A stretch of DNA of 43,614 nt, taken from contig JWZX01003324.1 of the NCBI GenBank assembly GCA_001275005.1, positions 1 through 43,614 of the forward strand, given 5' to 3'. The stretch comes from Chrysochromulina tobinii. Its lineage: Eukaryota. A program made the position numbers and the translations under genes. How positions within the stretch are numbered: the stretch's first letter is position 1; each line of letters begins with the position of its first letter. A model generated the notes under the pieces. The model did not search any database. It was not told the origin of the DNA and saw only the letters and a list, made by a program, of their open reading frames with translations. Shown piece after piece: positions 1 to 12,925 of the stretch.

Positions 1-203
1 CTTGGGCCCCATCCGCGATCACCACGGCTTATGGATTTCAAACGACGGTTTTTCGTCCATTTTCGCTCACTTTACCGCTCAGGCGGCCATACAAGATTAC
101 AAGTGTGCCATGAGCCATGCGGGCCCTCCTCGTGCAGCTCCCGGCTCCGGGCGCGGCGCCTGTCCTCGCATGATTATCTTGGTCCACCCGAGGCTCCCAC
201 GTG

Positions 204-893
204 TCAGACGGACATCGCCGCGTTAGCGAGCGCTTCGAGCGCTCGCTCATCGTAAACGTCTCTCGCCGTGCGCTCGTCGGCTCCGCTTTCCCAAAAGGAC
301 TTGATTGCCTCCTCAACGCCAAGGGAGGTCATGTACTGAGCGTGGTCCGGGTTAGCCAGCGCGATTCGCCAAATCGCGTACGGCCCCCACAGCCGCATCT
401 TCGCATCGTCCGTGTGCCTCAAGTAGCTCGACATGACCGCGTCCACAATCGCAACGTACACGTCGGCCCTCAGGCGCACGGCAATTTTGACGTCCACCTC
501 GGGATGCTTGATCAAGACATCGCCCACCGTCTTGCACATGCTGCACGCCAACTCAACATCATCGGCTGCGCGCACGCTCAGAGCAATCGCGTCTGAAATT
601 TTGCCAAACGGCGTGCTCACGTCAAACTCGGAGGATGGGACGAAGCTCATCCTCTTGAGCGACCGTCCCATGGATTTCATCCGCGACATCATGGAGGTGC
701 GCTCATTGGCTGCCTTGGCACTCGCGGACGCGACGTTGAAGCCCTGGCTTGCCATGGCCTCGCGATTCATAGTGGGTGCCTTGAAGAGCTTATTCCTCGG
801 CTGGTTCCGCTTTTGATCCATCTTGTCGAGGGCCGCCTTGCCGAACCGATCGAAGGCCGTGGGTCCTTTCTTCGGGCCGTGCACCCTCTCCAT
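204..893 (-). CDS. Hypothetical protein with C-terminal armadillo/HEAT-like helical segment
   Basis: ORF 204..1046; probable start MERVHG at 893 (an upstream ATG is possible). The C-terminal IVDAVMSSYLRHTDDAKMRLWGPYAIWRIALANPDHAQYMTSLGVEEAI resembles an ARM repeat. Confidence 0.5.
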   Translation of the reverse strand: MERVHGPKKGPTAFDRFGKAALDKMDQKRNQPRNKLFKAPTMNREAMASQGFNVASASAKAANERTSMMSRMKSMGRSLKRMSFVPSSEFDVSTPFGKISDAIALSVRAADDVELACSMCKTVGDVLIKHPEVDVKIAVRLRADVYVAIVDAVMSSYLRHTDDAKMRLWGPYAIWRIALANPDHAQYMTSLGVEEAIKSFWESGADERTARDVYDERALEALANAAMSV

Positions 894-1250
894 CGCCTTA
901 CCCGCGTCTTGGTTGACCAACGGCACACCTGCGAAGCCCCACATTTTGCCGCACGTACGTAGCTTCGCGGATTTGGACCGAACGCGTTGACGTGATTGTA
1001 TGAAACGCGTCTCAAACTTGTCTCGAAAAGGCAGCCGTGAATGCACCGGAGGAGCCGGGACCGATGCTCTCTATCCGGGCAAAGTTTCGTCAATTGTTTC
1101 AGTTCGTTTTTCGGAGCGGCCGAGCTCATCAGACGTCGCGGGCCCCTTCGCATTCTGTGCAACCTCGCGATTCATAGTGGGTGCCTTGAAGAGCTTATTC
1201 CTGGGCTAGGTTCCGCTTCTGATCCATCTTGTCGAGGGCCGCCTTGCCGA
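758..1250. repeat. ~88-bp direct repeat (758-844 and 1163-1250)
   Basis: cctcgcgattcatagtgggtgccttgaagagcttattcct...gatccatcttgtcgagggccgccttgccga occurs twice. The copies differ by two substitutions and a 1-bp insertion in the second copy. Confidence 0.95.
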
Positions 1251-2947
1251 TGAACTCATTCGTTTATGTATGGGCTGCAGCCAAAACCACCATCAGCCAG
1301 CATACGACCACGACTACGGGCTCGTTGAGCGGCGTCATAGTCGACGGTGTCGCCACATACCGGGGTGTCCCCTACGCTCGCCCGCCACTTGGAGATCTGC
1401 GCTGGCGTCCACCAGTGCCCGTCACGCCGTGGTCCGGGGTGAGGGCAGCCGACAAGGATGGCCCCGGCTGCCCGCAGGAGTGCCTACTGCCCGCACTCAC
1501 CTGCCCGCCAATCACTTCCGAGGACTGTCTCTACCTCAACGTGTTTGCTCCGGCCAACGCCACGGTTACCAGTTCCGGCAGTGCAGCGGTCCTCCTCTTT
1601 ATTCACGGCGGCAATTTCATCCAGGGGTATGGTGGCGGGCCGCTCTACGACGGCTCGATGCTCGTGCAATCCCACGGCATCGTCGTGGTGTCCATAAACT
1701 ATCGCCTGGGCGCTCTGGGCTGGCTATTCACGGGCGCGCCCCCGTCGGAGGAGCCCACAGACAATTTGGTCGGCAACTACGGCCTGCTCGATCAGCAGCT
1801 CGCGATGCGCTGGGTGCAGGCGAATGCGGCCCGATTCGGCGGTGACCCATCGCGCATCACCCTTTTTGGCCAGTCGGCGGGCGCCCAATCGATCTCGTGC
1901 CACCTGACGATGCCCTCCTCCAAGGGCCTCTTTGCTGGGGCGATCCTTGAGTCCGCGCCGTTGGGCCTCACCTGGCGCACTGCAGAGCAGTCGCCAAAGT
2001 TCACCGGCCTCGTGGCGAAGCTCGGCGGCTGCATCGGCACAACACCTGGCGAGTATGTGCCGTGCTTGCGCGCGATGCCGGTCGACACCCTCTTGAAGGC
2101 ACAAACGGCGGCCGGCAACAACATCCCGATAGAGGCCGGGACCACCCTTTCGCTGTTCGAGCCGTTCGCTCCGACAGTGGCCACGGCGCTTCTGACTCAG
2201 CAGCCGCTGAACGCCTTCCTGGCCGGCCGTGTGCACGATGTGCCGATCTCACTCGGCTCGGTCGAACAGGAAGGCCTCGTCTTTGTGTACGAGGCCTTCC
2301 CCACCCCGGTAACGCCAGTAGAGATGGACTCGCTGCTACGCCTCGTGTGGGGTGCCGACGCGCCGGCCATCCGTGACGCCTACCCGGTGCCGGCCGCGCA
2401 GCAGGCGGCACACGATGCGCGGAATGTCACGAGCCTCGTCGCGACCGATGGGCTCTTCCACTGTGCCATCCGCGCGGCCGGCCTCGCCCTAGCCGATCAG
2501 TACGCCAAGGGCAGCCGGACGCACCCCACGTACGTATACAACTTCGACCACCTCATCTCTTTCGGGGCGTCGTTTTGGCTGCCGACGAACCCGGTCTGCG
2601 TCGAGGCCGTGTGCCACGGCGAGGAGCTGCCGTTCGTCTTCCAACCGGACGTGTCCATCATCAACGTCTCCTTCACCTCCGAGGAGGTTGTACTCTCGGA
2701 TCTCATGCAGACGCACTGGGCCGCCTTTGCCAGCACCGGCCATGCCGCCGCCTCGGTGGCCTCGGTGGTCCGCAAGCTTGCTCCCCAAGCGGTGACACAA
2801 GCGGCGGCGCTCGACTGGCCGCTCTTCGAGCCGGCCAATGAGAGCTACGCTCTCTTCAGAGCGCCTGACTCGCACATCGTGCCGCATCCCTTTCGCGCCA
2901 AGTGCGCCGTCTGGGACTCGATCGGATGGGACTGGATCGTCGACTGA
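1250..2947 (+). CDS. Type-B carboxylesterase/cholinesterase-like alpha/beta hydrolase
   Basis: Motifs GVPYARPPLGDLRW, SEDCLYLNVF, oxyanion HGGNF, NYRLG, nucleophile elbow FGQSAGA, acid EG and CHGEEL catalytic His. First ATG at 1250. Confidence 0.93.
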   Translation: MNSFVYVWAAAKTTISQHTTTTTGSLSGVIVDGVATYRGVPYARPPLGDLRWRPPVPVTPWSGVRAADKDGPGCPQECLLPALTCPPITSEDCLYLNVFAPANATVTSSGSAAVLLFIHGGNFIQGYGGGPLYDGSMLVQSHGIVVVSINYRLGALGWLFTGAPPSEEPTDNLVGNYGLLDQQLAMRWVQANAARFGGDPSRITLFGQSAGAQSISCHLTMPSSKGLFAGAILESAPLGLTWRTAEQSPKFTGLVAKLGGCIGTTPGEYVPCLRAMPVDTLLKAQTAAGNNIPIEAGTTLSLFEPFAPTVATALLTQQPLNAFLAGRVHDVPISLGSVEQEGLVFVYEAFPTPVTPVEMDSLLRLVWGADAPAIRDAYPVPAAQQAAHDARNVTSLVATDGLFHCAIRAAGLALADQYAKGSRTHPTYVYNFDHLISFGASFWLPTNPVCVEAVCHGEELPFVFQPDVSIINVSFTSEEVVLSDLMQTHWAAFASTGHAAASVASVVRKLAPQAVTQAAALDWPLFEPANESYALFRAPDSHIVPHPFRAKCAVWDSIGWDWIVD

Positions 2948-3350
2948 CACAGGGGCGGGGAGGGCGTGGGGCTTTCGACACTGTGCCAAGCCTTGGAGAC
3001 CGGAGGCGGAGGGTCGGAGGCCGGTGACGGAGGGGGTAGAGCGCAGAGGCCTTGTGAGAGTGTGATCTATCTGATCAGTTCGGTCGTACAGGGGCGAGTG
3101 TTACTCGATCTTGTTTTCACATCTTCCATTCATTGTAACATCGAGTCCAGTGTTGTCCGCGTCGCTGACTCGCGCTCTGTACGAGCCCTCCACAGACCCC
3201 GCCGCGCCGGGGTTGTTCAGAGCACAGAGACGAGGTGCTGGGTGGGCTACTGGGCTTGGGTGGGCACCGCGGGCGGGCGGGTAAGCGAACGGGTGTGCGC
3301 TTAGTGTGCGCGAGGGGTTTCGTGAACAAACGTGTTTTGTTTTGCTAATC

Positions 3351-3514
3351 CTGGAAGTCTCTCAAACGGAACTGGTGAAGTCTCACAACCGGAATTGGTG
3401 AAGTCTCACAACCGGAACTAAACAACTAATAGGTTGTAGAAGAAGGTCGGAATCCGGAAACGGGGCAAAGTATTAGAGAGACGAAGCGGTCGTAATGGGG
3501 AGTCTCACAAACGG
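3351..3514. repeat. Tandem 21-23 bp repeat ((c/t)tggtgaagtctcacaaccggaa) x3 plus one dispersed partial copy
   Basis: Units at 3351-3371, 3372-3394 and 3395-3417; partial gagtctcacaaacgg at 3500-3514. Lies in an AT-richer intergenic segment. Confidence 0.85.
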
Positions 3515-3798
3515 TAGGATTAGGAGTTTGAAGACATAAATTGATGAGGCGAACTCAAGACACACAACCGGGCGAACGAAACTCGTCTCGTCTCGCGCAC
3601 CCTGTGGGAAATCGTCGCCCGTTCCCTGGTTCAGTACAGACCTGTACAGTACTGTTGAGAACGAGGTCGAAGCGTGCGCGCGTGCTCAGGTATGCGGCGC
3701 CGCTTGCGACGCCGCCTGCGCATGCCTCGTATCTGTAGCGCAAGCGTGTGGTCACTTTCGCGAGTTTCGAGTCTCGCAGGCTCCGGTGGGCTCCTCTC

Positions 3799-6700
3799 AT
3801 GTCAACGAAATGGCTGTGGCGAGCGAACGAAGCACTCGCCGCGGAGACAGGGGCTGATGGCAGCGACGAGCGTAAACCAATACTCTTGAAAAGCGATTCG
3901 TTTGGTCGAAAGCTGGATAAGGAGAAGGTTGGAATCCGGAAACGGGTCAAAATATTGAGGAGACGACACCGGGTCTTGATATTGGCACGCATCCTTCTGG
4001 CAGTGCCAGGACCCGTCTTCTTGGTGTACTCAGCCATTCAACACTTTGAGGTCACTACCGCGGGGTGGTCTATCACGCAGGTTGAGACTGGGCGAAGTTT
4101 GGCGTTGGCTGTCGGGCTGATTTTAGCTCCGGTGTGGATTCTTTCGCTTCTCATTGCGCAGATCGATAGGAAACCTGCCCAGAAGTTCGCCATAGGCAGC
4201 CGCGTGTGCGTGAAGCGCAGCAACGGAGATAAGAGCTTTGGCTATGTGAAGGAGTACAATGAGAAGACGCGAGTCTACAAGTTGGAGCTCGCTACTGGTA
4301 CGCTCGAGAAATTCGATGAGGCGGCGATCGAAAAGAAACCGGCTCAAAGGTTCGCGAATGCCCAGAAGTTCGCCAAAGGCAGCCGCGTGTGCGTGAAGCG
4401 CAGCAACGGAGATAAGAGCTTTGGCTATGTGAAGGAGTACAATGAGAAGACGCGAGTCTACGAATTGGAGCTCGCTACTGGTACGCTCGATAAATTCGAT
4501 GAGGCGGCGATCGAAAAGAAACCGGCTCAAAGGTTCGCGAATGGCAGCCGCGTGTTGTTCGTGGAGCGTGGCAGCGAAGATAAGAGCTTTGGCTATGTGA
4601 AGGAGTACAATGAGGAGACGCAAGTCTACAAGGTGGAGCTCGATATTCCTACTGGTACGTTCAAGCAGTGTGGAGAAGACTCCATGCGAGATGCAAGTCC
4701 TGTGATCTCTCGGGAGCGTCTCGTGCGTCTCTGGAAATACTTCCTGAGTCTCTGGAAATGGGACCAACGGATCTGGACATGGCCAAAGGCCTTTGAGGCT
4801 GCTTTGTTTTGGGGCTGTGTCTATGGGTACGTAGTGCTCTACCAATCCAATGCTGCACCTAACTATTTGCTCGGCGCACTCATCTTCTGGGTTGTGTTAG
4901 GCCCGCCCGTGATCGCACTGATTTTGTACACGGTCACAAATATTGTGCGATCCATCATCGACTACCAGGACAACCAAAACGCCGAGTACCATACTTTTGT
5001 GAACTTGCAAGCTGCTCGGCTCAGCATCCTGACCATCTTCGGCGCCTTCCTGACCGTCTATGCTCTGTCGGCAATGTCGCGGGTGGTCATTCCATACAAT
5101 CTGGTGGTACCCTTTGTCGAGCTCGCATACAGAGACATCACCTGTACGGACCGGGACGCGTTCTGGACTGCGTTTAACGCTTCGTTCAAGAGCTTCAATG
5201 CTAGCTGCCATGCCCTGCCCAATTGCGGTTACGCTTCGTTCGAGAGCCTGTGCCAGGCCGTGCAGTACGCACCAATGGTGCAAGCTGAGAGCGTCGACAT
5301 TTTCAAAGTTCTCCTCTTCAATTGCGTAGCGTGGGTGCTCGGCTCGCTGCTCGTCTTTGGCACTGGCCGTGCAAGCCTAAAGAACGGCTACGCGCAACTA
5401 CTCTCCAAACACATGCTCGTCGCCATGGTGCTGGGCCTTGGGCAATCGATGAGTGCGTTCTACTCACTCATGCGCCTTTCTCTTCTCGTGCCAAAGCTGG
5501 GGCTGCCGCGCCCGGCTGCCTACTTTGACAAAACGGGGTTGATGTCTCTGGAGCTACCATTGTACTGCTATGGAAACACGTGCACGTACTACGATTTTGG
5601 CGGCACCATCATTGTGCACGTGCTCATCGTCGTTGCGTTCAACTTTGACTTCCTCAAAAAGTATGCGTCGGCCATCGGCGCCGGAGACCAAGCAGCCATC
5701 AAGAAGCTCAAAGAGAAGATGAGGAAGGAGAAGATTTGGAATGAGGAGATACAGAAGTACGAGTGCAAGTGGAGCGACGAGGCTCCTTATTTCTATTTCA
5801 TTCCAGCAACTTTTGTGAAAGAGTGCGATGACAAAAGGTTGCCTCCCATGCAGGTGCTCGACGACGACGAAATCCTGGAAAAGATACAAATCCGTCTCGT
5901 CGACGCGTTCGAACAGGCGGAGAAGGAGGCACGGATGGCGAAGGAGAAGGTGGCGGCCGAGAAGGCGGCGGCCGAGAAGGTGGCGGCCGAGAAGGTGGCG
6001 GCCGAGAAGGTGGCGGTCGAGAAGGCGGTCAAGGGCATTGACATTGGCAAGGGCATCGACGAGTCGACTCAATCGGACGAGAAGGAAGCGGCCGAGAAGG
6101 CGCCGGCCGAGGTGGCGGTGGCCAAGAAGGAAAATCAAGGCATTAACAAGGCATTGACAGGGCGAGGCATCACGTTCAAAATCAAGGACATCCTCGTCGT
6201 GAGCCATCGTTGGGAAGAGAATGGTCGGCCCGATGTCAACGGGGCGCAGCTGCAGGCCATCAAGGAGTATCTGAAGGAACACCCCGAGATCAAATGGGTC
6301 TGGTTCGACTATTCATCGATGCCCCAGAAAATCGGCCGCATCGACACTCGGTCTAAAGAGGAGAGGGCCGAGTTCCAACTGATGCTCGAATGCATCACCA
6401 ACCTCTACCTGACCGCGCAGGTCCTCATTCTCCTCGATGGGTCGTACGCGTCCAGGTTCTGGACGCTGACGGAGGCATGGTGCTCGATGCAGACGGCCAC
6501 AAAAGACGGGCTTCGGAATTCTATTTCCTCAACGGTGGATGCTGACTTTAAGGGCTCGGATGTGCAAGTCGGGTCGAGATGCACTATCAAGTGCATCCAC
6601 AACGCAGCTAAAGGAACGACAAGCAAGGGTCTTGTGGATCTGGTTGCCACACAGACACCTAAGGCAATGCATGGAATCCTCGAGAAGCCGGACGTGAACG

Positions 6701-6906
6701 TCACCAACGCAAAGGACAAAGAGACCATGCTGCCCAAGATCCTGGAGATCGATAAAGATGTCATTCAGGGCTTTAAGAACGGCTTTAAGAAGCTGCAGAG
6801 CAACCAGAACCCTTCTCCACAGCCAAACTCGGGAAAGCCAGCCAAAAAGGCTCAGGTTGCTCCTGCTGACTCCACCGGTGATGTCACTGCCTTCAACGAC
6901 CAGTGA
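3799..6906 (+). CDS. Polytopic membrane protein with 3 Tudor/SH3-like repeats and a C-terminal HET (heterokaryon-incompatibility/TIR-like) domain
   Basis: Intronless ORF, 1035 aa from ATG 3799, with about 8 hydrophobic helices. Three repeats GSRVCVKRSNGDKSFGYVKEYNEKTRVY. HET-type motifs in order: ILVVSHRW, WVWFDYSSMPQ, ITNLYLTAQVLIL, SRFWTLTEAW. Confidence 0.8.
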   Translation: MSTKWLWRANEALAAETGADGSDERKPILLKSDSFGRKLDKEKVGIRKRVKILRRRHRVLILARILLAVPGPVFLVYSAIQHFEVTTAGWSITQVETGRSLALAVGLILAPVWILSLLIAQIDRKPAQKFAIGSRVCVKRSNGDKSFGYVKEYNEKTRVYKLELATGTLEKFDEAAIEKKPAQRFANAQKFAKGSRVCVKRSNGDKSFGYVKEYNEKTRVYELELATGTLDKFDEAAIEKKPAQRFANGSRVLFVERGSEDKSFGYVKEYNEETQVYKVELDIPTGTFKQCGEDSMRDASPVISRERLVRLWKYFLSLWKWDQRIWTWPKAFEAALFWGCVYGYVVLYQSNAAPNYLLGALIFWVVLGPPVIALILYTVTNIVRSIIDYQDNQNAEYHTFVNLQAARLSILTIFGAFLTVYALSAMSRVVIPYNLVVPFVELAYRDITCTDRDAFWTAFNASFKSFNASCHALPNCGYASFESLCQAVQYAPMVQAESVDIFKVLLFNCVAWVLGSLLVFGTGRASLKNGYAQLLSKHMLVAMVLGLGQSMSAFYSLMRLSLLVPKLGLPRPAAYFDKTGLMSLELPLYCYGNTCTYYDFGGTIIVHVLIVVAFNFDFLKKYASAIGAGDQAAIKKLKEKMRKEKIWNEEIQKYECKWSDEAPYFYFIPATFVKECDDKRLPPMQVLDDDEILEKIQIRLVDAFEQAEKEARMAKEKVAAEKAAAEKVAAEKVAAEKVAVEKAVKGIDIGKGIDESTQSDEKEAAEKAPAEVAVAKKENQGINKALTGRGITFKIKDILVVSHRWEENGRPDVNGAQLQAIKEYLKEHPEIKWVWFDYSSMPQKIGRIDTRSKEERAEFQLMLECITNLYLTAQVLILLDGSYASRFWTLTEAWCSMQTATKDGLRNSISSTVDADFKGSDVQVGSRCTIKCIHNAAKGTTSKGLVDLVATQTPKAMHGILEKPDVNVTNAKDKETMLPKILEIDKDVIQGFKNGFKKLQSNQNPSPQPNSGKPAKKAQVAPADSTGDVTAFNDQ
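4177..4680 (+). repeat. Coding tandem repeat, three ~165-183 bp units (Tudor/SH3-like domain)
   Basis: Units 1 and 2 (from 4177 and 4360, period 183 bp) are nearly identical at DNA level; unit 3 (from about 4543) is more diverged. Confidence 0.95.
5944..6030 (+). repeat. 15-bp coding minisatellite (EKVAA/EKAAA)
   Basis: gagaaggtggcggcc-type unit repeated about 5-6 times. Confidence 0.9.
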
Positions 6907-8241
6907 GTCATACGCAGTGTCGATACGCAGTGTAAATGGCTAGTAAATGGCCCCCACACACCGGTCACCGCGAGTACGCGGCGGACCATGCGGGTATGCG
7001 AAGAACATGCGAGACGGTTGACGCATGACGGTTGACGCGTGACGGCCCAGCCCAAATTGCTCTCGTCAACGAGTGGGCGTCCGAAACGGGGGATGCGGGC
7101 GCTCGGCGACGGCCCGTCGAGCAGGACGACAGCAATTTTGGGCCTGGTGACGGCTAAGCGCGGGCTAAGCGCGGGCGGCGGTTACGCGAAATCCGTTTGC
7201 ACCGTCGGTGCTTGGTCTGCGGGCCAGGCGAGAACAGAGTCAGAGAGAGAGAGAGACGGTGGGACGGTACCGGGCCGCGGGCGCGAGGCGGGCAGAGGCC
7301 AGAGCAGGGACTTCGCTAAGGAGTAAGGACTTTATCTTCGGTCGCGTTGTCGTCGGGCGAAATTCCGGAATGGTTAACAGTAAGTCCCACGCCACGCCGT
7401 GCACGGCACGGCTCCGGTGCCCGGAGGCGCGGATGCGGCACGCATGCCCATGCGATGCCCGGCGGCGCCGCGGCGCGCGCCCGCGTGGAGCGCGGCGAAG
7501 GGCGATGCTCGGCATCTTTCACGTCATGACCTGTGTCGTGTGTGCCGCCTCTAGCTCGGCTAGAGACGACGGTTTTAGAGACGACGGAGACAGTCCCGCA
7601 CGCGCCCCCCACGCCCCCACAGCGGGACATCGTACGTATACAGACATACACACACATACCCGACACCGGACACAGGACCCGGAACGCGATACAAAACCGA
7701 CCCCACCGCCGTCCCCGCACTACTGTGTAGCGTGTGCCTTGCTGTACTCCGGATACCCACATGTGCGCCCACAGAGCTACCTGCTACCAGCCCCAAACGT
7801 ACATTGCCTATGCCCACAAGAGCGGGCACAAAGCCGAACAACCGCAAACCCCCTCGCCTGCGCGGGCCGCCGTGGCCATCCTCATCATTCCGCCTCATGC
7901 GAGATCGTACACCATCGTTGATGGCATCATTGTGGGCATCATCATCGTCATCATCCTCTCGCACGCATCATCATCATGCCTGCCATGCAATCCTCGCCTC
8001 CCTATATGTCCCAACTTCCCGACGCGCTCGCCGCACCATGCAAGTAATACTCTCCAACGCACGCCGGCCCGTTTGGTCATTTGGCCATTTGGTCATTTGG
8101 TCGTCTTTCAGTAGGGCTGTGGGACCCCGTCGCACCTGCCGCTGTATTCACAGGCAGATTCGATTAAGAGGGGGCTGGAGGGGGAGGGGGGCTGCGACCG
8201 GTAGGCACGCGGCCGCCGCGCCTTTTCCTCCTGAGTCCTCC

Positions 8242-8390
8242 TTAGTCCTTGATGATCGATAGCCATGGCCGCTCAGCGCTCGTGAGCAGAGGAGTAGACA
8301 CGGGAATGGACACGGGTGCAAAATTAGGGGGCGACGAGGGTGATCGAGCGTTGAGGGTGCGCGTGTCGAGAGCAAGCGTACGCGTCGCCT

Positions 8391-8424
<34 letters not shown>

Positions 8425-10779
8425 AACCGCGTCTGCCTTGTATTCGGCCGCGCTCTTGCCGCTCGTGCTCCCGTATTGAAAGCGACCAGCGGCCGCAGAG
8501 CCGTTGGAGAAACCACTCGTGTAGGCATCGGAGATGGCCTGGCCAGCGGCTGGAGAGGCCGAGGGTGAGGAGGTCTTCTTAGCGACAGGCGTCTTGTACG
8601 GATACTTTTGGGCCTGCAGATCCAGGTGACGCATGTACGCGGCGTTTGAGGCGGCCGAGAGGAGGAAGGCCCTGGTGGGCTTTGCCCATCCCGCATCACA
8701 CGCCGCACACCGAGGGTGCTTGAGAACCCACTGATGGAGCTCCGCGAGCTGCGCACGCAGCTGGTGGGCTTCTTCGGCCGCCGCGTGTGCCGCCATACGA
8801 TCGATCCCGGCATTGTCGAGCGCGCGCTGCTTCTCATCGAGCGCCGTCTCGAGCGTCTGCACCCGCGCCGAGTGTGCCTGCATCGCCCGTCGCGCATCGT
8901 TCGCGTTTACGCCGTTGAGCTCGGCGAGCGCCTCGCTCATGCGGTCGTTGGCACCGCGCGCCGCGCTCAGCTCCGTTCGAAGACCCTCCACCTCCGCCAC
9001 GGCGCCCTGATGCTTGAGACGGTACTCCTCGTACGAGCCCGTCATCTTTTGGAGCTGCTCCTTCTGGAACTGGAGCTGCTCTTGGTTGAGCTGCAGCTGG
9101 ATCTCGACGCGCGCGAGCTCGGTCGCCGCACGCGTCGCCGTCTCGGTCAGTCGTGTCGTGTCGGCTGCATGCTGCTCCTGCAGCGCCGACAGCCTCGCTT
9201 CGGCTCGCTCGATCTCGACGCCAAGCGCCGCCGCCTCCGCGCGCGCCGTGTGCCCTTCATTGCGCAGCCTCACGATCTCAACCGTCGCCTTGTCCATATC
9301 AGCCTTGAACGCAGCACTCTGTTCTTCGAGCGACTTGCGGAACCGTTGGCCCTGCTCCCGGATGAGCACATCACTCGCGTCCTTGGCTTGAGTGAGCGCC
9401 GCGGTGTGCTCGCGGGTGGTGCGCGCGGCCGCCCGCTCCATGGACGTGATGAGCTCGCGAGCGGCGTTCACCTTCTCCGTCTCGTGCTTGAGCTCGATTG
9501 CAATCTGCGCCACCTTCTCATCGGCACGCCTCTCCACGTCAGCCCGCGCACGCTCATAAGCGATCTGACGCTCTGAGAGGTCCCTCCGCAAGCGCTCAAG
9601 CTCGTCGGTCGTCGATTTGAGGCTCACCTCGAGCGTGCTCACCTTGCGCTCGTACTCGAGAAGCAGTGCGTTCCGCTCCGACATCCACTCGCGCTGCGCC
9701 GTCGTGAGCGCTTGGTCGATGGCGCTCGCCGCTCGCCGCCTCTCAGCGTCCAGCTGCAGCCGGAGGCCCGCCCGCTCCTCGGCAGCGCGCGCCTCAGCCT
9801 TGGCGACCGCCTCAGCGCGCGAGGCACGCGCCTCCTCGAGCACTTGCCGCTGCCGCTCGGCCGCGTGTCTCTCGCGCTCCTTGAGCACCTCCGTGAGCTC
9901 CGCTTGCTGTTCGAGTAGCACCTTCTCTGCCGCGGCCGCCTGCGCCTGCATCGCCCGATCAAGCTTATAGGCCGCGGCAGCCGCCTCCTCGGCCGCCGCG
10001 CTCGCAGCTGCGGCCGCTCCCTCTGCCACCTCAGCCCGGTGCTTCTCGTCCAGGCGCACTGCGCGCTCGCTCCCCAGTTCCGTACGCAGATGCTGCACCT
10101 CGGATCTCCATTTGGCGAGCTCCGCATCGGTGCGCTGCTCCGTTTGCGACTTGAGTGCTTCCGCCGATCGCGCGGCGGCCTCGGCGGCGGCCGCGCGCAT
10201 GCGCGCGCGCTCCGCCTCCGCGACCGCCTCAGCGCGCGCACGCCTCGCCGCCTCCGCGTCGGAGCGCTCGCGCCGCGCAGCCGCGAGCACCGAGTCTGCC
10301 TCGAGCTCCGCGGCGTCGGCGGCCTCGCGCTCGAGGCCCGCCTGCCACCATGCGCTCGCCGCCTCGGCCTCGGCCGCTGAAAGCGCCGCGTTCGCATCAC
10401 GCTGCGTAGCAGCGAGCGTCGCGCGCAGCCGGGCAGCCGCCGATGCAGCCCAGCGTTCCTCATCAGCCCGCTCCGCCCAGCGATCCGCGGCTGTCCGAAG
10501 GTGGTCCGCCGACGACAGCAGCTCGCTCGCGCGCATGCGCAAGCGCGACGCTTCGGGCGAGGGTGATCGCGAGGGCGAGCGCAATGGAGAGCGCGACGGC
10601 CTGTACGCCGTGTCCAATGTCTGGGCAGACGACGGAGGTGAGACCCACACGTTCGACGGCCGGTGACGAGTGTACTCAGCCGTGTGTGGCAATCCCGAGG
10701 TCTCCCTCGGCGAATAGAGACCGCGTGCCCGCGGTGGAGAGGTGGACTTGCGCGGGCTGTCCATGTCGTACGAAGACAT
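8242..10779 (-). CDS. Long coiled-coil protein of unknown function
   Basis: 904-aa ORF; probable start MSSYDMDSPRK at 10779. SP-rich N-terminus, long A/E/R-rich heptad region, a CxxC (RCAACD) and a poly-Ala (gcc)n near the C-terminus. Confidence 0.7.
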
Positions 10780-11179
10780 GAGAGCTCTGAGCGCGTGCAG
10801 GTCGAGCGCGTGCAGAATGCACGCTGGGAGGGCTCTGCTCTGCTCTGACGATCGTTTCGAAACTGCGAAAAACCATGTAACAGACCGCCGCGGTGCTCGG
10901 TTTTCCGGCCCGCGGATCTCGTTTAAAAATGAATGTGGGGGATTATCGGAGTCCACATGGAATGATTGAACCTCAAAGTACCGATGCTCGATGTGAAAAA
11001 TGCGGTCCCGCTCCCGCCGCGCTCAGACGCACATCGTCGGCTGACCCGAGGACGGGGCGTCCTCCCGTTACACCGCGGAATATTCCAAACGCCGCCGCGG
11101 TGTGCGCACCGCTTGCTCGGTGACACGTGCAGTCGTGCCACTGCCACTGCCCCCATGCCCAACCTCCTCCACGGTCGAG

Positions 11180-12217
11180 TCAGCTGACGTCGGGCGCGAG
11201 GGGCGGCGGCTCCGGCGGCAGATCGTCGAGTAAGGGCGGCGGCTCGCTCTCAGGGTCAGCCTTTGCGATGACGGCCTTCTCGAGGGCCTCGGCCACCTGC
11301 TGCGCCGCCGCGTCCAGCGCGGACTCCATTTGCAACGCCGCGGCGTCGCCACTCCCTTTGCCGCTGCCGATCCCGCCAGCCGCGGCGAGCTCATCCAGCC
11401 CGCGCTGCACCACCTGGCTTGCTCGCTCGCAGCCGACGAAGCGGGCGATGGACCAGTCGGTGCCAGTCTGAGAAAAAGGCGCGAGCATTGTCCGCACGAG
11501 CAGGCGCAAGTCGAGCACCTGGAGCGCTCGAGGAGGCGGCCCAGGCTTCCCCACAGCCCTCCAAGTGAGCGTAAGCCCCTCGTGCGTGAAAAAAGCGGGG
11601 AGGACAGTTGGCGACTGAAGCTCCTCGCATAGAATCACCGGGATCTGCCAGTAACTAGGCAGCCCCGCCTTGTCGAGCTGCTGCACAAGGTGCGAGCGCA
11701 TGTCTTTCGTGAGAGCCGCCGATCCGCGGACCACAAATGGATGGTCGCCCTCGGCGTCCGCCCAGCCGACAACGAGCGCGAAGGCGTGCCCAAGCGGCAT
11801 GGCACCGAGAACGAGGTTGAGGTCGGCGCACGCTTGCTGCGCCTGCACTAGCGACCGCTGTGCCTCGTCCGGATCGATGAAGAAAGCACACACCGGCTCT
11901 GGCGACTGGGTACCATCGCTGTCGGAAAAGGTCATTGGCATGAATCGCTTCGCGCCACTCGAGGTGTGGTGGTTCATGATGGCGAACGTGGGTACAACGT
12001 CCAGTTTTGCAACGAGCTCTTGTATGCTCAGCTGCGGCACCTGTACAGCGGCTTGCGGAGCAGACCATGACGGCTTTGCCTTGGCTTTTGTGTTGGTCGA
12101 GCGTTCAGGCTGCGTGCTCCTCGGCACCGCGCGCTCCTCGGCGGCCCTGGCGACGGCAGCCGCGAGCAACAAGTCCTCGTCCTCGGCTACGAGTGAGCTT
12201 TTCGGTTTCTTGCCCAT
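11180..12217 (-). CDS. TIC22: Tic22-family protein
   Basis: Tic22-like motif order: LSIQELVAKLDVVPTFAIMN, FFIDPDEAQRSL, AMPLGHAF, IPVILCEEL, LPAFFTHEGL, LQVLDLRLLV. Probable start MGKKPK at 12217. Confidence 0.65.
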   Translation of the reverse strand: MGKKPKSSLVAEDEDLLLAAAVARAAEERAVPRSTQPERSTNTKAKAKPSWSAPQAAVQVPQLSIQELVAKLDVVPTFAIMNHHTSSGAKRFMPMTFSDSDGTQSPEPVCAFFIDPDEAQRSLVQAQQACADLNLVLGAMPLGHAFALVVGWADAEGDHPFVVRGSAALTKDMRSHLVQQLDKAGLPSYWQIPVILCEELQSPTVLPAFFTHEGLTLTWRAVGKPGPPPRALQVLDLRLLVRTMLAPFSQTGTDWSIARFVGCERASQVVQRGLDELAAAGGIGSGKGSGDAAALQMESALDAAAQQVAEALEKAVIAKADPESEPPPLLDDLPPEPPPLAPDVS

Positions 12218-12466
12218 GTCTCGGCCGTCCGCGTTTCTCCTTCCACGCGCGAGGAGCGAGCGAGGACGCCCGCGGCGGCGTCGATCGATGCGGTGAAACA
12301 CGGAGATACCGGGTATGCATCTCGTTTCCGCGGCACCGAGGTCGTTTTGTATCATACATGTACGAACAAAGGCGCCTCAGAACAGACATCTGAACACATT
12401 CGTGTTTTGTGAAAGTCTGTTCCTGGAACTTCCTCATTGTGCGAGCACGCTTCTCCCGCAACCGCG

Positions 12467-12925
12467 ATGGCGCAGCTCATCCTTGTCTCAGCGAGTTTGA
12501 CCGGCTTCGTGCCCGGCTTTGTGCAGCTGCAGCGATCGTCAGCAGCAGCCCACAAATCGGTGCGGATGCAAGACATGTGGGTCCCACCGAAAGATCTTGG
12601 TCCACTGCCAGATCTCAAAGGCTTGTTTCCCAGTGACGTGCAGTTCCTTGATGTCGATGGCGAGGAGCTCACCTTTCGCAGCAACGAAAACGGTGCAACG
12701 GTGCAGTACTGGGTAAACGGCAAGGGTCGTATGCGATCCGCTTCAATCAGAGAGGTAGACGGTTCGCTACAGATCAGTGGGACCATCAAGAAGCCAGTGC
12801 CACTCTTCTCACTCATCGGATTCAACCTCGAGGATTTTGTGACAGATGTTGCCACTCCGAAGGATCCTGCAGTCATGAAACAGGCTATGGCGCTCGTCGG
12901 ACGTGCGCCGCGAGAGGTCGTTTGA
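12467..12925 (+). CDS. Small unknown protein with a bipartite plastid-type presequence
   Basis: MAQLILVSASLTGFVPGFVQLQRSSAAAHKSVRM gives a hydrophobic signal, a GF-type cleavage motif and an S/A/R-rich transit-like peptide, followed by a globular-looking domain. Confidence 0.55.
   Translation: MAQLILVSASLTGFVPGFVQLQRSSAAAHKSVRMQDMWVPPKDLGPLPDLKGLFPSDVQFLDVDGEELTFRSNENGATVQYWVNGKGRMRSASIREVDGSLQISGTIKKPVPLFSLIGFNLEDFVTDVATPKDPAVMKQAMALVGRAPREVV

What the first reader, a model, noticed from the sequence alone, without database searches (positions are those of the whole stretch)
3799..6906. Receptor-like membrane protein coupling Tudor-like repeats to a HET/TIR-like effector domain: candidate algal immunity or cell-death system
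Seen: the C-terminus has the ordered motifs SHRW / WFDYSSMPQ / NLYLTAQV / SRFWTLTE (Glu codon 6472-6474), matching the fungal HET pattern (SHxW, WxDxxCIxQ, MxxIY, RxWxxQE). About 8 hydrophobic helices give a self-consistent topology in which the repeats and HET domain are cytosolic, and the two Cys-rich loops (one with two NAS sequons) are luminal or extracellular. Established: HET domains are cell-death effectors in fungal allorecognition and are structurally related to TIR domains, which use a catalytic Glu on NAD+. Inference: this is a membrane-tethered sensor-effector in an alga, for example against viruses or non-self. I do not recognise this architecture from any named family. The gene is intronless and appears less GC-rich than its neighbours.
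Basis: partly seen in the sequence, partly recalled or inferred. Interest (0 to 1): 0.8.

Follow-up and report, generated by a model that had tools for sequence, protein, structure and literature searches.

The report
Eight-helix algal HET/TIR-like receptor family
This freshwater alga (Chrysochromulina) gene encodes a predicted eight-helix membrane protein ending in a strongly diverged HET/TIR-type domain with an invariant glutamate; it belongs to a large, shuffled, mis-annotated family that likely acts in NAD-based immune or cell-death signalling.

Summary
The ORF (3799-6906, 1035 aa) and its motifs are real. Family hydropathy, an AlphaFold model and sequon placement support eight membrane helices with a cytosolic C-terminal domain. 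That domain passes no Pfam cut-off. HET is its most recurrent weak hit, its best fold matches are TIR and nucleoside-deoxyribosyltransferase domains (Z up to 5.7, weak), and profile alignment puts Glu892 (invariant, 115 of 115) on the TIR catalytic Glu. The constant unit is membrane module plus HET-like domain (82 of 95 hits). The Tudor-fold repeats are optional: the same loop is empty or carries TIR or SAP in relatives. One assembly holds at least 11 copies with shared identical tracts. The window's copy is a join of two paralogues, probably a mis-assembly; the architecture is unaffected. The wider domain family (2,976 clusters) is fused to LRR, ankyrin, WD40, GBP, PARP and lectin domains, and reaches bacteria beside a TPR gene. 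HET homologues in haptophytes and membrane TIR proteins in Gephyrocapsa were already reported; I found no description of this architecture. NADase activity and an immune role are inferred, not shown.

The parts
3799..6906 (+). Single-exon ORF, 1035 aa: eight-helix membrane protein with C-terminal HET/TIR-like domain
   Evidence: 82 of 95 homologues share the membrane module
3973..4158 (+). N-terminal helical hairpin TM1-TM2 (residues 59-120); skipped by the public gene model
   Evidence: hydropathy peaks 59-77 and 101-119; conserved R64, P70, P72, S116, L118
4174..4698 (+). Three Tudor/SH3-like beta-barrel repeats in the variable cytosolic TM2-TM3 loop (optional module)
   Evidence: 183-nt repeat; PHF19 Tudor Z 9.6, rmsd 2.0 over 56 residues; loop is -2 to 322 aa long in relatives
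4783..5655 (+). Six-helix membrane module TM3-TM8 (residues 329-619), no named family
   Evidence: no Pfam family at cut-off in 40 members; no Atlas hit
5080..5292 (+). Predicted luminal/extracellular loop (residues 428-498): four invariant Cys and N-glycosylation sequons (5176, 5197)
   Evidence: Cys 69 of 69, sequon 66 of 69
5485..5592 (+). Second predicted outer loop (residues 563-598), conserved PRPAxYFD...ELP, two partly conserved Cys
5776..5913 (+). N-terminal part of the HET/TIR-like domain (residues 660-705)
5914..6168 (+). Low-complexity insert (AEK-rich 15-nt repeats at 5944-6025) splitting the domain; absent from most relatives
6184..6498 (+). HET/TIR-like core (residues 796-900): VSHRW, WxDxxxMPQ, YxxRFWxxxE; Glu892 at 6472-6474
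6571..6768 (+). C-terminal subdomain with conserved LxxPDVxVTNxxDK motif, not part of the TIR match
6371..6513 (+). 143-nt tract identical between paralogues, where the window switches from locus A (L001) to locus B (L004)
   Evidence: window 1-6513 identical to L001, 6371-12798 identical to L004

Best explanation
The gene encodes a predicted eight-helix membrane protein whose cytosolic C-terminal domain is likely a divergent HET/TIR-superfamily enzyme that would cleave NAD+ or a related nucleotide when the proteins cluster, likely in immune or cell-death signalling. Shown: the architecture, the invariant Glu, family expansion, domain swapping in the TM2-TM3 loop and tract sharing between paralogues. 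Predicted: topology and TIR-like fold. Inferred: the conserved membrane module with its disulfide-bonded, glycosylated outer loop anchors the protein and senses a surface or membrane cue; optional cytosolic modules (Tudor-fold, SAP, canonical TIR) tune what is sensed or recruited; clustering brings HET-like domains together, as in TIR enzymes, and Glu892 drives N-glycosidic cleavage, giving NAD+ loss or an ADP-ribose-type signal. The trigger (virus, bacterium, grazer or non-self cell) is not identified; virus infection is my first guess.
For: Glu892 115 of 115, W888 115, R886 114. Profile-profile alignment to 26 bacterial TIR_2 domains: score 29.8, probability 64%, against a maximum of 17.8 in 25 column shuffles; E892 falls on the TIR helix-C Glu, and again with 14 ThsB domains. 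Among 48,161 chains the best fold match is the SpbK TIR filament (Z 5.7, rmsd 4.1, 108 aligned); 12 of the top 30 rows are TIR/SEFIR and 7 are deoxyribosyltransferases. HET is the most frequent Pfam hit among divergent members (9 of 67, best E 7.5e-4). Partner domains in the wider family include TIR_2, GBP, LRR, ankyrin, WD40, HEAT, ARM, Roc, PARP, ART, SAM, SPRY, C-type lectin, trypsin and kinase. Up to three tandem HET-like domains in one protein. At least 11 copies in 9 loci of one assembly, patchwork identical tracts, pooled dN/dS lowest in the core (0.35) and 0.4-0.8 elsewhere over 22 copies. In Gephyrocapsa huxleyi, 5 rows of the 2,178-row differential-expression table for EhV infection are annotated HET, 4 of them predicted transmembrane; each passes as up in infected samples at one or more time points and none in the uninfected controls (PMC12489294 Table S2).
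Against: No member passes the PF06985 cut-off (best 20.3 bits against 22.5), and P0001 has no HET hit at E <= 1. Fold matches are weak: Z under 8, Foldseek no E <= 0.001, and deoxyribosyltransferases tie with TIR. The profile score against TIR_2 is no higher than TIR_2 against flavodoxin (31.2) in the same test. HET enzyme activity is unproven even in fungi (PMC10890737 passage; PMC12881547 table 'ND'). The outer loop is among the best-conserved parts of the membrane module over the whole family (mean conservation 0.70), which does not look like a hypervariable recognition surface. The G. huxleyi genes were not shown to be homologues of this family, and no enrichment test was possible. No expression data under infection exist here for this gene.
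Confidence: 0.55

Rival explanations
1. The domain is a Glu-dependent N-glycosidase of the TIR/deoxyribosyltransferase class acting on another nucleotide or nucleotide-sugar in a non-immune role, such as surface or scale modification or routine signalling, tethered to a secretory membrane.
For: Deoxyribosyltransferases tie with TIR in the fold searches (Z 5.3 against 5.7; 14 of the first 36 rows). An extra invariant C-terminal motif (D965, T969, N970, D973, K974) lies outside the TIR match. The membrane module is conserved. A 21-residue stretch weakly hits Glyco_transf_34 in 12 of 49 members.
Against: The profile comparison with 18 deoxyribosyltransferases is at background (score 10.9). The Glyco_transf_34 hit is one strand, best E 0.02 per domain. 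Copy number, tract sharing and LRR/ANK/WD40/GBP/TIR partners fit conflict systems better.
Confidence: 0.17
2. The membrane module is the effector (a channel or pore), and the HET-like domain gates it by binding or turning over a nucleotide signal.
For: Six-helix unit with a structured loop between the last two helices and invariant polar residues in or next to helices (R559, N615, D617, H538). The module is nearly always with the HET-like domain (67 of 70). Membrane effectors of TIR signals exist in bacteria (10.64898/2025.12.03.692087, passages).
Against: No recurrent channel or transporter Pfam hit in 40 members. The HET-like domain also occurs without this module in most of the wider family (only 6 of 130 further representatives carry it), which points to it being the output.
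Confidence: 0.12
3. The domain is a non-enzymatic TIR-like adaptor that recruits soluble HET-like proteins by like-with-like contacts.
For: Proposed for fungal HET domains (PMC4986451 passage). Many non-membrane partners exist in the same algae.
Against: Strict conservation of Glu, Arg, Trp, His and Asp from algae to bacteria is what an active site shows.
Confidence: 0.1
4. The family is a self/non-self or mating recognition system between algal cells, like fungal het loci.
For: Divergent versions at one locus: L008 shares flanks with L001 but is 82-90% identical over residues 550-800. dN/dS about 1.0 in the outer loop among 7 close copies.
Against: Unicells with no known vegetative fusion (my knowledge). 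Only a small share of fungal HET genes act in allorecognition (PMC10890737 passage). Mosaic alleles may be assembly chimeras.
Confidence: 0.06

Closest known systems
Fungal HET domain (Pfam PF06985; Podospora HET-E/D/R and BH1, Neurospora TOL, HET-6)
   Different: Below the Pfam cut-off; C-terminal and behind eight membrane helices instead of N-terminal in an NLR; no NACHT/NB-ARC; low-complexity insert; conserved DVxVTNxxDK subdomain; unicellular host.
Enzymatic TIR domains (TIR_2 PF13676, ThsB PF08937, SpbK, AbTir, SPARTA TIR-APAZ, plant RUN1/RPP1, SARM1)
   Same: Predicted beta-alpha core superposes at Z 4-5.7; Glu in the helix-C register.
   Different: No TIR Pfam hit for this domain; extra N- and C-terminal subdomains; some relatives carry a canonical TIR in addition (4 of 95 in the loop position); activity untested.
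Membrane TIR and HET-annotated proteins of Gephyrocapsa (Emiliania) huxleyi (PMC12489294)
   Same: Haptophyte; extracellular region or several helices followed by a cytosolic TIR with conserved Glu; virus-responsive (section read); HET-annotated transmembrane genes in Table S2.
   Different: The text discusses Pfam-TIR proteins, not HET ('heterokaryon' 0 occurrences). Homology to this eight-helix family was not tested, as the sequences were not at hand.
Nucleoside 2'-deoxyribosyltransferases (PF05014; TIR-DrHyd-SLOG class, PMC9503650 passages)
   Same: Same fold class; tied in structure searches.
   Different: No sequence-profile similarity; small soluble enzymes.
Bacterial BcTir/BcTpr two-gene anti-phage system (10.1101/2023.05.26.542521; search listing only)
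   Same: Bacterial relatives of this domain are followed by a TPR gene in 8 of 10 loci.
   Different: The bacterial proteins here have no TIR Pfam or PADLOC hit; homology to BcTir/Tpr was not tested.

Membership tests
HET domain (PF06985) | Score at or above the Pfam cut-off of 22.5 bits | tested here: not met
   P0001 no hit at E <= 1; best relative P0306 20.3 bits, E 7.5e-4; weak hits in 7 of 49 and 9 of 67
HET domain (PF06985) | Three conserved blocks matching fungal HET domains | tested here: inconclusive
   Blocks are conserved, but the fungal pattern is recalled; no fungal HET sequence could be retrieved for a direct alignment
HET domain (PF06985) | Sufficient to trigger cell death when expressed | not testable with these tools
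   needs a bench assay
TIR superfamily | Pfam TIR or TIR_2 hit | tested here: not met
   none for this domain; TIR_2 hits in relatives are separate domains
TIR superfamily | Flavodoxin-like TIR fold | tested here: inconclusive
   best Z 5.7, rmsd 4.1, 108 aligned (SpbK); tied with deoxyribosyltransferases; Z under 8
TIR superfamily | Conserved Glu in helix C after the third strand | tested here: met
   E892 aligns with the consensus Glu of TIR_2 and ThsB profiles; invariant in 115 of 115
TIR superfamily | NAD+ hydrolysis or cyclisation | not testable with these tools
   needs a bench assay
Tudor domain | SH3-like beta-barrel fold | tested here: met
   PHF19 Tudor Z 9.6, rmsd 2.0, 56 aligned; Foldseek TM 0.86 by target length; PilZ and KOW barrels score similarly
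Tudor domain | Pfam Tudor-family hit | tested here: not met
   only KIF2A-like_1st at E 0.08
Tudor domain | Aromatic cage for methyl-Lys/Arg | tested here: inconclusive
   consensus of 59 repeats keeps few aromatics; cage positions are recalled, not mapped on the model
NLR (NACHT/NB-ARC receptors) | Central STAND NTPase domain | tested here: not met
   no such Pfam hit in P0001
TRAPPC8 (the public annotation) | Similarity to the TRAPP subunit family | tested here: not met
   no TRAPP Pfam hit for P0001 or for P0081, which carries that name

The most novel reading that the evidence does not exclude
Haptophytes have a previously unrecognised class of multi-pass immune receptors: an eight-helix module wired to an enzymatic HET-like domain, with a swappable cytosolic slot, diversified by gene conversion. 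They belong to an unannotated branch of the HET/TIR superfamily of about 3,000 clusters that reaches bacteria as a HET-like + TPR gene pair. This branch makes an NAD-derived signal against viruses and gives a simple route to the open question of what HET domains do biochemically.
Probability: 0.3. Interest if true: 0.85.

Novelty: new variant of a known kind. Interest (0 to 1): 0.62.

Why it matters
Viruses end haptophyte blooms, yet antiviral mechanisms of these algae are barely described (PMC12489294), and how HET domains kill cells is stated to be unknown (PMC10890737, PMC10197012). This family is invisible to Pfam cut-offs and filed in public databases as 'trafficking protein particle complex 8', so counts of algal immune genes miss it. 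It offers small natural domains, an obvious Glu control and bacterial relatives that can be tested in E. coli.

Tried and rejected
Whole-genome paralogue count: no genome is held, so counts come from the best 80 of 176 metagenome stretches and are lower bounds. Direct alignment to fungal HET: PF06985 rang in 0 of 5 and 0 of 401 prokaryotic genomes and in no control, and a motif scan of viral contigs found nothing. A first profile comparison with 8 algal TIR domains was not significant (E 0.44). PDB sequence searches gave nothing meaningful. Viral origin or viral copies: none in viral contigs, plasmids or BFVD at E <= 0.001. PADLOC: no hit for the domain. Membrane module: no Atlas hit; it was not folded alone, and the full-length fold search was filled by the Tudor repeats, so its fold is untested, not new. 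Recent horizontal arrival at this locus was rejected because paralogues share the low GC3. The A-B junction could not be bridged with public contigs. The tree (FastTree, 117 domains) places the 12 membrane-type leaves in about three groups; monophyly was not tested. The bacterial relative is rare: 1 of 401 genomes in one phylum sample, the seed genome itself. dN/dS values are pooled pairwise Nei-Gojobori counts on recombining, possibly chimeric copies, and are descriptive only.
Full report
Observation. Neighbours are ordinary eukaryotic genes: carboxylesterase, GMC oxidoreductase, myosin, topoisomerase II, aminotransferase. Named homologues come from Chrysochromulina parva and C. tobinii, the two best Atlas clusters are commonest in Haptophyta, and RNA runs holding the stretch are freshwater, lake or mixed-culture samples. 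A public C. tobinii protein (KOO21910.1, P0367) is identical over residues 120-1035 and is named 'trafficking protein particle complex 8'; no Pfam result supports that name. Its different first 21 residues can be read by eye from two short upstream exons (about 3495-3513 and 3640-3689, spliced to 4162; sequence printed). The single-exon model is better supported: the skipped helical hairpin is conserved in frame, and two RNA-library contigs (4045-4192, 4071-4223) cross 4161/4162 unspliced, with the caveat that RNA libraries can hold DNA.

Topology. Hydropathy averaged over 69 aligned members peaks at 59-77, 101-119, 331-349, 361-379, 408-426, 501-519, 540-558 and 596-614, matching helices of the full-length model (mean pLDDT 74.6, pTM 0.57). 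Lys/Arg density alternates: 1.5-2.7 per 10 residues in the segments called cytosolic, 0.5-1.0 in those called outer. The 428-498 loop has four invariant Cys and a sequon in 66 of 69 members, against 0-1 of 69 in five other segments. With eight helices, the N-terminus, the repeats and the C-terminal domain fall on the cytosolic side. This is a prediction; which membrane is unknown.

The C-terminal domain. It spans about residues 660-705 plus 790-995, split by an AEK-rich insert that most relatives lack. No Pfam family passes its cut-off. HET (PF06985) recurs below threshold in 7 of 49 close members, where a one-strand Glyco_transf_34 hit was more frequent (12 of 49), and tops the list in 9 of 67 divergent ones (best E 7.5e-4). 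The model of the domain is confident (pLDDT 83, pTM 0.81). Foldseek found nothing at E <= 0.001. The wide structural search ranked the SpbK TIR first (Z 5.7, rmsd 4.1, 108 aligned) and a deoxyribosyltransferase second (5.3); 12 of the top 30 rows were TIR/SEFIR and 7 deoxyribosyltransferases. In the second look, 35 of the first 36 rows were of these two kinds, with many redundant entries. Z under 8 is weak. I therefore built comparison profiles from genome searches and aligned them to 117 cores: TIR_2 scored 29.8 (probability 64%; shuffles at most 17.8), ThsB 20.0 (shuffles at most 14.1), deoxyribosyltransferase 10.9 and flavodoxin 14.3 (both background). E892 fell on the consensus Glu of both TIR profiles. 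As a caution, TIR_2 against flavodoxin scored 31.2 in the same test, so the score alone shows only fold-level likeness; the Glu register is the more specific point. E892, W888 and F887 are invariant in 115 of 115 non-redundant domains. The domain works like a TIR-class Glu enzyme by these signs, and is HET-like, but fails the PF06985 membership test.

The repeats. They fold as Tudor/SH3-like barrels (PHF19 Tudor Z 9.6, rmsd 2.0, 56 aligned), but PilZ and KOW barrels score alike and no Tudor Pfam family hits. They are optional. Of 95 hits to the C-terminal domain, 82 carry the six-helix module; 17 of these have 2-4 repeats in the TM2-TM3 loop, 11 have one at the C-terminus, 4 have a canonical TIR in the loop position, and the loop runs from -2 to 322 residues. 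SAP domains occur there too. Of 70 hits to the membrane module, 67 carry the HET-like core. The conserved unit is membrane module plus HET-like domain, with a swappable cytosolic slot.

The family. A profile search of 1.84 billion representatives gave 2,976 proteins at E <= 0.001 and 620 at 1e-30. Of 130 new representatives only 6 carry the membrane module. Others are fused to GBP, LRR, ankyrin, WD40, HEAT, ARM, Roc, PARP, ART, SAM, SPRY, TIR_2, C-type lectin, trypsin, ion-channel or kinase domains, though most have no named partner. One assembly holds at least 11 distinct copies in 9 fetched loci, 10 with the membrane module. Close copies share patchwork identical tracts of 90-911 nt, and pooled dN/dS over 22 copies is 0.35 in the core and 0.40-0.81 elsewhere. 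Ten prokaryotic loci encode distant relatives with SHRW, WYDYxxMPQ and YxxRxWCxxE; in 8 of 10 a homologous TPR gene follows directly, with no Pfam or PADLOC name.

A flaw in the window. Bases 1-6513 are identical to locus L001 and bases 6371-12798 to locus L004; the 143-nt overlap is shared by several paralogues. L001 and L008 keep the window's upstream flank and continue differently; L004 has another 5' half and upstream gene. Among proteins with the same 5' half, P0016 (9 contigs), P0368, P0370, P0373 and P0374 have the A tail, P0371 stops short, and only P0367, which may not be independent of the window, has the B tail. One DNA run holds both downstream flanks without mismatches in the listed pieces. 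A mis-join is the simplest reading; real recombination is not excluded. Both parents have the same architecture and the same Glu region, so the finding stands, but the natural genes to study are the 1043-aa and 999-aa versions.

Literature. PMC4986451 (passages) reports HET homologues in Haptophyceae, stramenopiles, choanoflagellates, green algae and bryophytes, and HET-TIR similarity up to helix C. PMC9153377 (passages) notes the shared Glu. PMC10890737, PMC10197012 and PMC12881547 (passages) state that the HET mechanism or enzyme activity is not established. PMC12489294 (passages, one section, supplement rows) describes virus-responsive TIR genes with extracellular regions or several helices in G. 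huxleyi. Its Table S2 holds five HET-annotated genes, four predicted transmembrane, each passing as up in infected samples at some time point (for example 373c_6950, log2 fold change 7.6-9.2 in recovery; cogent4737_i1, 3.7 at T0); the passages I saw do not discuss them. I did not read its Table S9. PMC9503650, PMC4580454, 10.64898/2026.10.11.758280, 10.64898/2026.04.20.719644 and 10.64898/2025.12.03.692087 were seen as passages only; supplements of the preprints were not seen. Nine searches showed no description of an eight-helix HET-like family in haptophytes; the library omits most subscription papers.

Mechanism and verdict. Most likely (0.55) this is a membrane-tethered HET/TIR-type enzyme activated by clustering, using Glu892 on NAD+ or a related nucleotide in defence or cell-death signalling. 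The rivals are a non-immune glycosidase, a gated pore, an adaptor and cell-cell recognition. Architecture, conservation, expansion and shuffling are shown; fold and topology are predicted; activity, trigger and role are inferred. It is a new variant of a known kind. Interest 0.62.

Noticed in passing
L078-L085, around 3000-6200 (L083 325-3514): Bacterial 700-770 aa relatives of the HET/TIR-like domain (Actinomycetota, Acidobacteriota, Chthoniobacterales) are directly followed by a homologous TPR gene in 8 of 10 loci; no Pfam or PADLOC name. Candidate unnamed two-gene defence system.
   Followed up: partly
window 6371-6513: The contig switches from one genomic locus (L001) to another (L004) inside a tract identical between paralogues, so gene order across this point is unreliable.
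   Followed up: yes
window 3438-3484 and 3354-3419: An 85% identical 47-nt copy of coding sequence 3920-3966 lies upstream of the gene, next to a 23-nt tandem repeat (2.9 copies); possibly a remnant of a local duplication.
   Followed up: no
L005 4249-7305 (+) and 9484-12339 (-): Two paralogues in convergent orientation flank a single 359-aa ORF; L065 and L066 also show inverted pairs.
   Followed up: no
L042-L044; proteins P0003, P0004, P0005: Members with two or three tandem HET-like domains in one chain.
   Followed up: partly
proteins P0081, P0106, P0367, P0368, P0405: At least five public C. tobinii proteins of this family carry the name 'trafficking protein particle complex 8', apparently a propagated mis-annotation.
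   Followed up: partly
window 8242-10779 (-) and 11180-12355 (-): Two long ORFs (845 and 391 aa) with no Pfam family at cut-off.
   Followed up: no
protein P0261: C-type lectin domains upstream of the HET-like domain; the same two names are paired in G. huxleyi gene 373c_1032 in PMC12489294 Table S2.
   Followed up: partly
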